From NCBI RefSeq assembly GCF_055900595.2, contig NZ_CM148325.1: 64,000 nt of DNA; one strand, 5' to 3'. The translations under genes were made by a program, and so were the position numbers. The notes under the pieces were generated by a model. It saw only the letters and a program-made list of their open reading frames with translations. It did no database searches and was not told the origin of the DNA. Within the stretch, counting starts at the first letter, position 1, and each line of letters starts with the position of its first letter. Of the stretch, positions 36,647 through 37,608 are shown piece after piece.

Positions 36647-37608
36647 TGCGTAGCGCGCAGGTATACCGCTGGCAGATCCCCATGGACGCGGGGGTGGTTC
36701 TGCGCGACAGGCGGTTAAAAACCCGCGACGGGCTATACGTTTGCCTGCGCGAGGGCGAGCGCGAAGGGGGGGGGGAGATCTCCCCACTGCCGGGCTTCAG
36801 TCAGGAAACCTGGGAAGAGGCGCAAAGTGTGCTGCTTACCTGGGTAAATAACTGGCTGGCTGGCGATTGCGAATTACCGCAAATGCCTTCCGTCGCCTTT
36901 GGCGTAAGCTGTGCATTGGCTGAGCTGGCAGACACGTTACCACAGGCGGCAAATTTCCGTGCTGCACCGTTGTGTAATGGTGATCCTGACGATCTGATCC
37001 TCAAACTTGCCGATATGCCAGGTGAGAAAGTGGCGAAGGTCAAAGTGGGATTATATGAAGCGGTGCGCGACGGCATGGTGGTTAATCTGTTGCTGGAGGC
37101 CATTCCGGATCTGCATTTGCGTCTTGATGCGAATCGTGCCTGGACGCCGCTGAAAGGCCAGCAGTTTGCCAAATACGTTAACCCGGATTATCGCGGCCGC
37201 ATCGCGTTTCTCGAAGAACCGTGCAAAACCCGCGAGGATTCCCGCGCCTTTGCCCGTGAAACGGGTATTGCCATTGCCTGGGATGAAAGCCTGCGTGAGC
37301 CGGATTTTGCCTTTGTGGCGGAAGAAGGCGTGCGAGCGGTGGTGATCAAACCCACGCTCACGGGCAGCCTGGAGAAAGTGCGCGAGCAGGTGCAGGCGGC
37401 GCACGCGCTGGGGCTGACGGCGGTGATCAGTTCATCTATTGAGTCGAGCTTAGGCTTAACGCAACTGGCGCGGATTGCCGCCTGGTTAACGCCAGACACT
37501 ATCCCGGGGCTGGACACGCTGGATCTGATGCAGGCGCAGCAGGTTCGTCGCTGGCCGGGTAGCACGCTGCCTTTTGTCGACGTTGATGCACTGGAGCGGT
37601 TGTTATGA
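36646..37608 (+). CDS. menC: o-succinylbenzoate synthase (enolase superfamily)
   Basis: 320 aa [41 protein letters not shown]...; start shares one nucleotide with the menB stop (TAATG). Confidence 0.9.

What the first reader, a model, noticed from the sequence alone, without database searches (positions are those of the whole stretch)
36766..36775. Ten-G homopolymer inside the menC coding sequence
menC codons 41-43 are GGG GGG GGG inside a run of 10 consecutive G (…GAA GGG GGG GGG GAG ATC…, protein …[16 protein letters not shown]…). Runs this long are uncommon in E. coli coding DNA and are hotspots for slipped-strand mutation, so menaquinone synthesis could be prone to frameshift inactivation here. 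I have an unverified recollection that K-12 has a Trp at the middle position (GGG TGG GGG), which would make this a single T-to-G change that created the tract.
Basis: partly seen in the sequence, partly recalled or inferred. Interest (0 to 1): 0.4.

Follow-up and report, generated by a model that had tools for sequence, protein, structure and literature searches.

The report
Hotspot mutation creates G10 run in menC
A single T-to-G change at a known kind of bacterial mutation hotspot fused two short G runs in the vitamin-K2 gene menC into a ten-G run; it has arisen repeatedly in E. coli, changes a conserved tryptophan to glycine, and leaves a tract that sometimes slips and breaks the gene. This is a clean example of known mutational processes, not a new system.

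Summary
The G10 run is real (window 36766-36775, menC codons 41-43 plus the first G of codon 44). It is the only G or C run longer than 6 in the 64 kb window.

K-12 and the window's nearest relatives read GGG TGG GGG. One T-to-G change at 36769 made the tract and gives Trp42Gly.

The ancestral site AA-GGG-T-GG, on the leading strand, fits the published GnT hotspot for T-to-G transversions.

The allele is rare but recurrent:
- Seven of 5,419 complete E. coli genomes carry G10.
- It sits in at least six different menC backgrounds.
- One avian-pathogenic lineage sampled in Korea, Denmark and the USA carries it.

In the window's own lineage it is a singleton: 2 contigs against 208 with Trp42.

Tract length does vary:
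- G9 frameshift derivatives occur in the avian lineage (4 versus 188 index blocks).
- No wild-type G5 or G7 products were found among 21,964 blocks of the same background.
- A K-12-like contig carries G12.

It is a new example of a known hotspot class, of modest interest.

The parts
36646..37608 (+). menC (o-succinylbenzoate synthase, 320 aa), carrying Trp42Gly
   Evidence: ORF. Full-length match to E. coli OSBS structures 1FHU/1FHV, E = 1e-209. Pfam MenC_N + MR_MLE_C and menD-menH-menB-menC-menE gene order.
36766..36775 (+). G10 homopolymer (menC nt 121-130)
   Evidence: The same tract occurs in 7 complete E. coli genomes and in loci L011-L019 and L021-L023.
36769..36769 (+). The derived base: T-to-G transversion (menC nt 124, TGG to GGG, Trp42Gly)
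   Evidence: It is the only menC difference from L006/L007/L008. T is present in K-12, R32_14_1F and H9Ecoli.
36764..36771 (+). Position of the ancestral GnT hotspot motif AA-GGG-T-GG (now AAGGGGGG)
   Evidence: Ancestral sequence from relatives. Motif definition and flank effects from Cherry 2022, Horton et al. 2025 and the 2026 PNAS paper's AC3+ motif. Leading-strand orientation from GC skew.
36772..36785 (.). Perfect 14-bp palindrome GGGG-AGATCT-CCCC overlapping the 3' end of the tract; used as an IS186/IS421 insertion site in other strains
   Evidence: Sequence. IS insertion with 10-bp duplication GGAGATCTCC in CAVP761. The same junction is in 6 complete genomes, including two C600 assemblies.

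Best explanation
The tract comes from one spontaneous T:A-to-G:C transversion at a GnT mutational hotspot. The ancestral menC sequence AA-GGG-T-GGGGGG has a T directly after three Gs, on the leading strand, with flanks reported to raise mutability. The published model is transient strand slippage: an extra G is added at the end of the G3 run, the strands realign, and a G:A mispair is left that fixes as T-to-G (mechanism inferred from the literature). Because a G6 run follows the T, this one substitution fuses G3 and G6 into G10 and changes conserved Trp42 to Gly. The change has arisen independently in several E. coli lineages and persists in some, so it appears to be tolerated. The enzyme probably keeps enough activity, but this is inferred and untested. 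The G10 run is in turn a far better substrate for replication slippage than the original G6. It yields -1 (G9) and +2 (G12) alleles that truncate MenC at 66-67 residues, which should abolish menaquinone and demethylmenaquinone synthesis (loss of synthesis inferred). In the window's isolate the allele is a recent private mutation and the gene is still in frame.
For: Shown here:
- One-base origin.
- The window isolate has only 3 private differences in 19 kb, so it is neither a mutator nor a poor assembly.
- Two assemblies give G10 (an NCBI third-party annotated assembly and Logan), and the Logan contig is 100% identical to the window.
- The exact Trp42 revertant protein is on 208 contigs.
- G10 is in 7 of 5,419 complete genomes.
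- At least 6 menC backgrounds, 7-70 nt apart, carry G10. In the two backgrounds with a matched wild-type allele in hand (the window's and K-12's), the G10 allele is otherwise identical to it.
- Clade sizes in index blocks: 188 (avian/B2-type), 134 (O111-type), 82 (A10-type), 72 (K-12-type).
- The + strand is the leading strand.
- G9 derivatives verified at DNA level, 4 versus 188 blocks, against 0 G5/G7 products in 21,964 wild-type blocks; Fisher p = 5e-9.
- G12 in a contig otherwise identical to K-12 over 9.3 kb.

From the literature:
- GGGT-to-GGGG hotspot: about 26-fold for G3 in Salmonella, nearly as strong in E. coli, 4-8-fold stronger on the leading strand, shown not to be a sequencing artefact, and noted to extend runs.
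- A 5' A and a 3' C or G raise the rate; AA was the most mutable 5' dinucleotide for G3 motifs with a 3' C.
- AC3+ is the strongest run-associated A:T-to-C:G hotspot and escapes proofreading and mismatch repair.
- Indel rate rises exponentially with run length.
Against: - In the window's own lineage the allele is a singleton. Both contigs probably derive from one sequencing run, and no reads could be inspected.
- G9 and G12 alleles could partly be homopolymer sequencing errors. One G9 contig (L027) has a second indel nearby.
- G9 was found in only one of four sizeable G10 lineages: 0 in the K-12-type, A10-type and O111-type backgrounds.
- No G9 or G11 occurs among complete genomes.
- 'Blocks' are index units, not counted genomes.
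- Mutation bias was not separated from selection for W42G as the cause of recurrence.
- The activity of the W42G enzyme is unknown.
Confidence: 0.8

Rival explanations
1. The G at 36769 in this isolate is a base-calling or assembly artefact. Some Illumina platforms miscall bases after G runs, and the true sequence is GGGTGGGGGG.
For: The allele is a singleton in its lineage: 2 contigs, probably from one run, against 208 with Trp42. Cherry notes that motifs containing G runs cause sequence-specific errors on some Illumina platforms. A palindrome lies next to the tract.
Against: Two different assemblies agree. Such errors affect only one read direction, and Cherry's tests show GGGT-to-GGGG calls in NCBI Pathogen data are overwhelmingly genuine. 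The identical change exists in 7 complete genomes, including three clonal isolates and an intercontinental lineage. The rest of the window shows no excess of odd differences.
Confidence: 0.1
2. Recurrence is driven mainly by positive selection for W42G, or for reduced menaquinone synthesis, rather than by mutation bias. The hotspot only supplies the variant.
For: Several G10 lineages reach tens to hundreds of index blocks. Natural menC knock-outs also occur: an IS insertion in a blood isolate and in C600, and a frameshift in C41.
Against: G10 remains rare, at 0.13% of complete genomes and about 0.85% within the B2-type background. The change is exactly the type, strand and flank context predicted by the hotspot. 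No phenotype data exist. The other men genes stay intact in carriers.
Confidence: 0.12
3. One G10 allele arose once and spread between lineages by homologous recombination.
For: The men-arn region shows divergent alleles consistent with recombination. The window's menC is about 93% identical to most E. coli, and 53 genomes lie in the 95-99% band.
Against: G10 alleles differ from each other at 7-70 sites within the 963-bp gene. For the window and K-12 backgrounds the G10 allele matches its own wild-type allele at every other menC site, including synonymous sites 15-18 nt from the tract. An imported segment would have to be under about 15 bp on the 5' side.
Confidence: 0.02
4. The tract is an evolved phase-variable (contingency) switch for menaquinone synthesis.
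For: A long G run early in the ORF. In-frame and out-of-frame lengths are both observed: G10, G9 and G12.
Against: The tract is derived, rare and absent from the ancestral allele. It is not conserved across lineages. Out-of-frame variants are few (4 versus 188 blocks, and 0 in three other lineages). menC is a housekeeping metabolic gene, not a typical contingency gene.
Confidence: 0.05

Closest known systems
GnT (G>=3 followed by T) T:A-to-G:C mutational hotspot motifs in bacteria (Cherry 2022/2023; Horton, Cherry, Waugh & Taylor 2025; 'AC3+' in the 2026 PNAS E. coli context study)
   Same: The ancestral site is GGGT. The change is T-to-G and extends the G run. The 5' A and 3' G flanks and the leading-strand orientation match the high-rate contexts. 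The change recurs independently, as hotspots do.
   Different: Here the T separates two runs (G3 and G6), so one hit jumps the run from 3 to 10 and creates a long coding homopolymer. The rate at this particular site has not been measured. Published flank data are mostly for G4T.
ntrB hotspot in Pseudomonas fluorescens (Horton et al. 2021, as cited)
   Same: A single coding-sequence T-to-G after a G run that recurs predictably and depends on synonymous codon choice. The H9Ecoli allele GGG TGG GGA would give only G8.
   Different: The ntrB change is adaptive under strong laboratory selection. For menC W42G no selective benefit is known.
Simple-sequence-repeat contingency loci (poly-G/C tracts in Haemophilus, Neisseria and Campylobacter genes; Moxon et al. 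2006, as cited)
   Same: A poly-G tract of about 10 inside the 5' part of an ORF, whose +/-1 slippage turns the gene off.
   Different: The tract is not maintained by selection, is not ancestral, lies in a housekeeping gene, occurs in a mismatch-repair-proficient species, and has not been shown to switch reversibly.
Homopolymer-run indel hotspots in E. coli mutation-accumulation studies (Lee et al. 2012, cited)
   Same: Indel rate rises exponentially with run length, so G10 should be much less stable than G6. This matches the G9 and G12 alleles seen only on the G10 background.
   Different: K-12 runs stop at about 8 G:C bp, so no measured rate exists for a chromosomal G10 in E. coli.

Membership tests
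GnT T-to-G mutational hotspot | [quoted passage not shown] | tested here: met
   The ancestral allele reads GAA GGG TGG in K-12 and in the nearest relatives.
GnT T-to-G mutational hotspot | The change is specifically T-to-G and lengthens the G run | tested here: met
   T-to-G at 36769 turns G3+T+G6 into G10.
GnT T-to-G mutational hotspot | Flanks of the high-rate type (5' A; 3' C or G) | tested here: met
   The site is AA-GGG-T-GG. Horton et al. rank 5' A highest and 3' C then G highest, with AA the most mutable 5' dinucleotide for G3 motifs with a 3' C. The exact G3 value for a 3' G was not read, as it is in their supplementary figure.
GnT T-to-G mutational hotspot | GGGT lies on the leading strand (the stronger orientation) | tested here: met
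   GC skew of the + strand is positive in 7 of 8 bins and +0.056 at 32-40 kb. menC is on the + strand.
GnT T-to-G mutational hotspot | Homoplasy: the same change in independent lineages | tested here: met
   G10 occurs in at least 6 menC backgrounds that are 7-70 nt apart.
GnT T-to-G mutational hotspot | Elevated per-site mutation rate measured directly | not testable with these tools
   Needs a fluctuation or mutation-accumulation assay at this site.
o-succinylbenzoate synthase (MenC, enolase superfamily) | Full-length homology to characterised E. coli OSBS, with the rest of the protein unchanged | tested here: met
   Aligns 1-320 to 1FHU at E = 1e-209, with 8 substitutions in total.
o-succinylbenzoate synthase (MenC, enolase superfamily) | Conserved capping-domain motif G-[large residue]-G-E-x-[AS]-P-L-P-G-F-S | tested here: not met
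   Position 42 is W 41, Y 18, L 15, R 9, F 8 and others in 104 divergent representatives, and never G. It is W in all 134 close homologues. The window has G. The gene is still menC, but this allele departs from the family consensus at this one residue.
o-succinylbenzoate synthase (MenC, enolase superfamily) | Enzyme activity of the W42G variant | not testable with these tools
   No mutagenesis data for W42 were found. Zhu et al. 2012 is not held in the library.
Phase-variable contingency locus | Long repeat tract within the ORF, with in-frame and out-of-frame lengths among close relatives | tested here: inconclusive
   G10 is the norm. G9 is on 4 contigs in one lineage and G12 in one K-12-like contig, with none in three other lineages. 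Sequencing error is not excluded.
Phase-variable contingency locus | Tract maintained across the species or lineage by selection | tested here: not met
   5,412 of 5,419 complete genomes lack it. It is a derived state.

The most novel reading that the evidence does not exclude
In lineages that have fixed G10, such as the avian-pathogenic O2:K1:H5-type clade, the tract acts as a newly born reversible ON/OFF switch for menaquinone synthesis. It would generate respiration-deficient subpopulations resembling small-colony variants, which might tolerate aminoglycosides or suit particular host niches. This would be a contingency locus caught at its origin, seeded by a substitution hotspot.
Probability: 0.05. 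Interest if true: 0.7.

Novelty: new member of a known kind. Interest (0 to 1): 0.3.

Why it matters
It gives a concrete, natural example of a two-step mutational cascade. A sequence-context substitution hotspot (GnT) fuses two short runs into a long homopolymer inside a core metabolic gene, and the homopolymer then becomes an indel hotspot. It shows how synonymous codon choice (GGG TGG GGG GAG) makes a conserved tryptophan fragile. It flags a recurrent E. coli variant, MenC W42G, present in hundreds of public assemblies with untested functional consequences. It also offers a ready-made natural system for measuring G10 slippage in a mismatch-repair-proficient enteric bacterium. For genome annotation and SNP phylogenetics, the site is homoplasic and error-prone and should be treated with care.

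Tried and rejected
- My first survey (a 60-mer with the window's own flanks) seemed to show that no other genome had G10. That was wrong. Two synonymous flank differences made G10 in other backgrounds indistinguishable from wild type. The 47-mer core query corrected it to 7 genomes.
- Quasi-palindrome templated mutation from the adjacent GGGGAGATCTCCCC palindrome was rejected. Extending the arms predicts T-to-A at this position, not T-to-G (read from the sequence).
- The MutT/8-oxo-dGTP route was rejected. Cherry shows G runs do not raise T-to-G rates in mutT strains, and the isolate's other private changes are a G-to-A and a 1-bp deletion.
- A general mutator or a poor assembly was rejected: 3 private differences in 19 kb, similar to the relatives.
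- The literature look-up for VOFL01 returned a false positive, JBVOFL of a Gardenia genome. The origin of VOFL01000126.1 remains unknown.
- Zhu et al. 2012 (OSBS residue mutagenesis) and saiSree et al. 2001 (IS186 consensus) are not held in the library.
- The '>=99%: 7' bands do not indicate G11 or G9 genomes. I take them to be partial ungapped pieces from the same seven G10 genomes. The top full-length rows are 97.9%.
- Structure prediction was not run, because the tools return no coordinates and AlphaFold is insensitive to point mutations.

Full report
OBSERVATION

Window 36766-36775 is ten consecutive G. It lies in a 963-nt ORF, 36646-37608 on the + strand, between menB (35789-36646) and menE (37605-38960). 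The ORF product aligns over all 320 residues to the solved E. coli o-succinylbenzoate synthase structures 1FHU/1FHV at E = 1e-209. The tract is gene nt 121-130, so codons 41-43 are GGG GGG GGG.

No other G or C run in the window exceeds 6 bases. An i.i.d. model expects 0.13 G/C runs of 10 or more in 64 kb. In K-12, 8-bp G:C runs in leucine tRNA genes are already described as outliers (PMC8510543).

ORIGIN OF THE TRACT

K-12 DH5alpha and the closest RefSeq allele (R32_14_1F) read GAA GGG TGG GGG GAG. H9Ecoli reads GGG TGG GGA, and the crystal-structure sequences have Trp42.

The window's exact MenC protein is in the 15-billion-protein collection only as HFT1103202.1, a third-party annotation of an E. 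coli draft. It is on 2 contigs, one of them the Logan assembly of run SRR27886137, which is 100% identical to the window.

If Gly42 is replaced by Trp, the resulting protein is an exact sequence found on 208 contigs. Three such carriers (AP025754.1, DBKJCO010000004.1, JAPWXG010000002.1) are 99.96-99.98% identical to the window over about 20 kb and have no other difference in menC.

The window isolate has only three private differences in 19 kb:
- a 1-bp T deletion at 28693;
- T-to-G at 36769;
- G-to-A at 43803, giving ArnA P256L.

It is therefore neither a mutator nor a visibly poor assembly. A single T-to-G transversion created the tract and gives Trp42Gly.

A CORRECTION TO MY OWN SURVEY

A 60-mer query with the window's flanks appeared to show that no complete genome shares G10. 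That was an artefact. The window differs from most E. coli at two synonymous sites just upstream, so G10 in another background scored the same as wild type.

With a 47-mer limited to the invariant core, 7 of 5,419 complete RefSeq genomes carry exact G10:
- APEC E19035 (O2:K1:H5, Korea);
- three '729' poultry isolates (Denmark);
- GPEC505-623 (chicken, USA);
- A10 (river water, Panama);
- O111:H8 SF4-1 (USA).

menC is annotated as intact in the five of these that I fetched.

RECURRENCE

The five poultry genomes share identical menC DNA and the protein WP_103433231.1, so they represent one lineage on three continents. A10 and SF4-1 have different alleles.

The K-12-type W42G protein (P0316, for example EHY6231301.1) is on 36 contigs, from at least three flank backgrounds.

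In a pairwise matrix, G10 sits in at least six menC backgrounds that differ from one another at 7-70 sites. The window and K-12-type G10 alleles are identical to their own T-bearing alleles at every other position. Recombinational spread of a single allele is therefore effectively excluded, and the change is homoplasic.

Lineage sizes, as index blocks of the collection (a proxy, not a genome count):

| Background | G10 / W42G blocks |
|---|---|
| Avian/B2-type | 188 |
| O111-type | 134 |
| A10-type | 82 |
| K-12-type | 72 |

The Trp42 form of the avian/B2-type protein is in 21,964 blocks.

MECHANISM OF THE SUBSTITUTION

- Cherry (bioRxiv 10.1101/2022.10.28.514265) found about a 26-fold rise for G3 in Salmonella, with E. 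coli nearly as strong. [quoted passage not shown] He found no dependence on MutT and gave several lines of evidence against sequencing artefact. He also noted that the product is a longer G run.
- Horton et al. 2025 (PMC12344412) showed that flanks modulate the rate. A 5' A is most mutable and 3' C then G are most mutable, with AA the top 5' dinucleotide for G3 motifs with a 3' C.
- A 2026 PNAS analysis (PMC13250602) calls the same motif AC3+. [quoted passage not shown]

The ancestral menC site is AA-GGG-T-GG on the window's + strand. That strand has positive GC skew in 7 of 8 bins, +0.056 over 32-40 kb, so it is the leading strand. Every sequence-level criterion of the motif is met. The rate at this site is inferred, not measured.

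Of 339 GnT sites (n >= 3) in the window, this is the only one where the hit would create a run longer than 8.

CONSEQUENCE FOR THE PROTEIN

Position 42 lies in the conserved motif G-x-G-E-x-[AS]-P-L-P-G-F-S.
- All 134 close homologues fetched have Trp there.
- Among 104 representatives at 31-59% identity it is W 41, Y 18, L 15, R 9, F 8 and other mostly large residues, and never Gly.

Gly42 is therefore outside the family's observed range, although the position is not invariant. Persistence of G10 in several sizeable clades, with the other men genes intact, argues that the variant is tolerated. Whether activity is reduced is unknown.

IS THE TRACT UNSTABLE?

Indel rates in E. coli rise exponentially with run length (Lee et al. 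2012, as cited). The empirical evidence is as follows.
- In the avian/B2-type background, the predicted G9 (-1) product is on 4 contigs. Their DNA is G9 and otherwise identical to the G10 reference, apart from one extra indel in L027. G11 was not found.
- In the same background carrying the wild-type G3TG6, about 100 times more abundant, neither the G5 nor the G7 product is on record. Comparing 4/188 with 0/21,964 gives Fisher p = 5e-9.
- A scan of metagenome contigs for nine or more G at this site found one hit, VOFL01000126.1. This is a 4.64-Mb contig identical to K-12 DH5alpha over 9,319 bases except that GGGTGGGGGG is replaced by G12, which splits menC into 67-aa and 259-aa ORFs.

Against a very high instability:
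- No G9 or G11 products were found in the K-12-type, A10-type or O111-type G10 lineages.
- No G9 or G11 occurs among complete genomes.

The wild-type G6 run is not perfectly stable either. Strain C41 has a -1 frameshift annotated as a pseudogene. A G7 product in the K-12-type background is on 4 contigs.

Some of these length variants may be homopolymer sequencing errors, and I could not inspect reads.

ALTERNATIVES

- An artefact in this one isolate remains possible (about 0.1), because the allele is a singleton in its lineage.
- Selection for W42G as the driver of recurrence cannot be excluded (about 0.12).
- Recombinational spread is essentially refuted.
- An evolved contingency locus is unlikely. 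The tract is derived, rare, and lies in a housekeeping gene.

COMPARISON AND NOVELTY

This is a new, well-documented instance of the GnT hotspot class, combined with classical homopolymer slippage. Its distinctive point is that the hotspot T separates two runs, so one substitution jumps the run length from 3 to 10 inside a conserved codon of a core gene. It is not a new kind of system, and its interest is modest.

Noticed in passing
L020 (NZ_CM176351.1, strain CAVP761) 1025-3336; corresponds to window 36772-36785: menC is split by an IS4-like IS421 (IS186-type) element inserted in the GGGG-AGATCT-CCCC palindrome next to the tract, with a 10-bp target duplication GGAGATCTCC. The identical junction is in 6 complete genomes, including two assemblies of the K-12 laboratory strain C600, WF5-5-T1/T2 and FS1576. 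From memory, G>=4-N(3-6)-C>=4 is the published IS186 target consensus (saiSree et al. 2001; paper not held). If so, C600 would be a natural menC mutant.
   Followed up: partly
L004 (NZ_CP127252.1, strain C41), menC nt 125: A -1 frameshift in the wild-type G6 run (GGGTGGGGG), annotated by RefSeq as a frameshifted pseudogene. A +1 (G7) product in the K-12 background (P0317, SOQ89111.1) is on 4 contigs. Even the ancestral G6 occasionally slips or is mis-sequenced.
   Followed up: partly
L009 (VOFL01000126.1) 4326-4337: A 4,640,270-bp contig in the metagenome collection is identical to K-12 DH5alpha over 9.3 kb except for G12 at the menC site. The origin of this record (laboratory strain, contaminant or mock community) could not be established.
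   Followed up: partly
window 26000-48000: The men-arn region of the window is at most 97.9% identical to any of 5,426 complete RefSeq E. coli genomes. Its menC is about 93% identical to most, with 53 genomes in the 95-99% band (the best about 98.7-98.9%). Yet GenBank records outside that set (for example AP025754.1) are 99.98% identical. This suggests a divergent, possibly recombinant, allele class for this region.
   Followed up: partly
window 28693 and 43803: These are the isolate's two other private differences from its three closest relatives. One is a 1-bp deletion in a T5 run just downstream of elaD. The other is G-to-A giving ArnA Pro256Leu.
   Followed up: partly
window 36690-36697: A second GnT site lies inside menC: GGGGG-T-GG (a G5T motif with a 5' C) at gene nt 45-52. 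T-to-G there would give a G8 run and a Val-to-Gly change. It is not mutated in any sequence examined.
   Followed up: no
window 28193-28552 versus L008 1-370: One close relative (JAPWXG010000002.1) diverges sharply upstream of about 28573: 75% identity, with a yfbK-like vWF gene in place of the elaD-side genes. This marks a variable-content junction.
   Followed up: no
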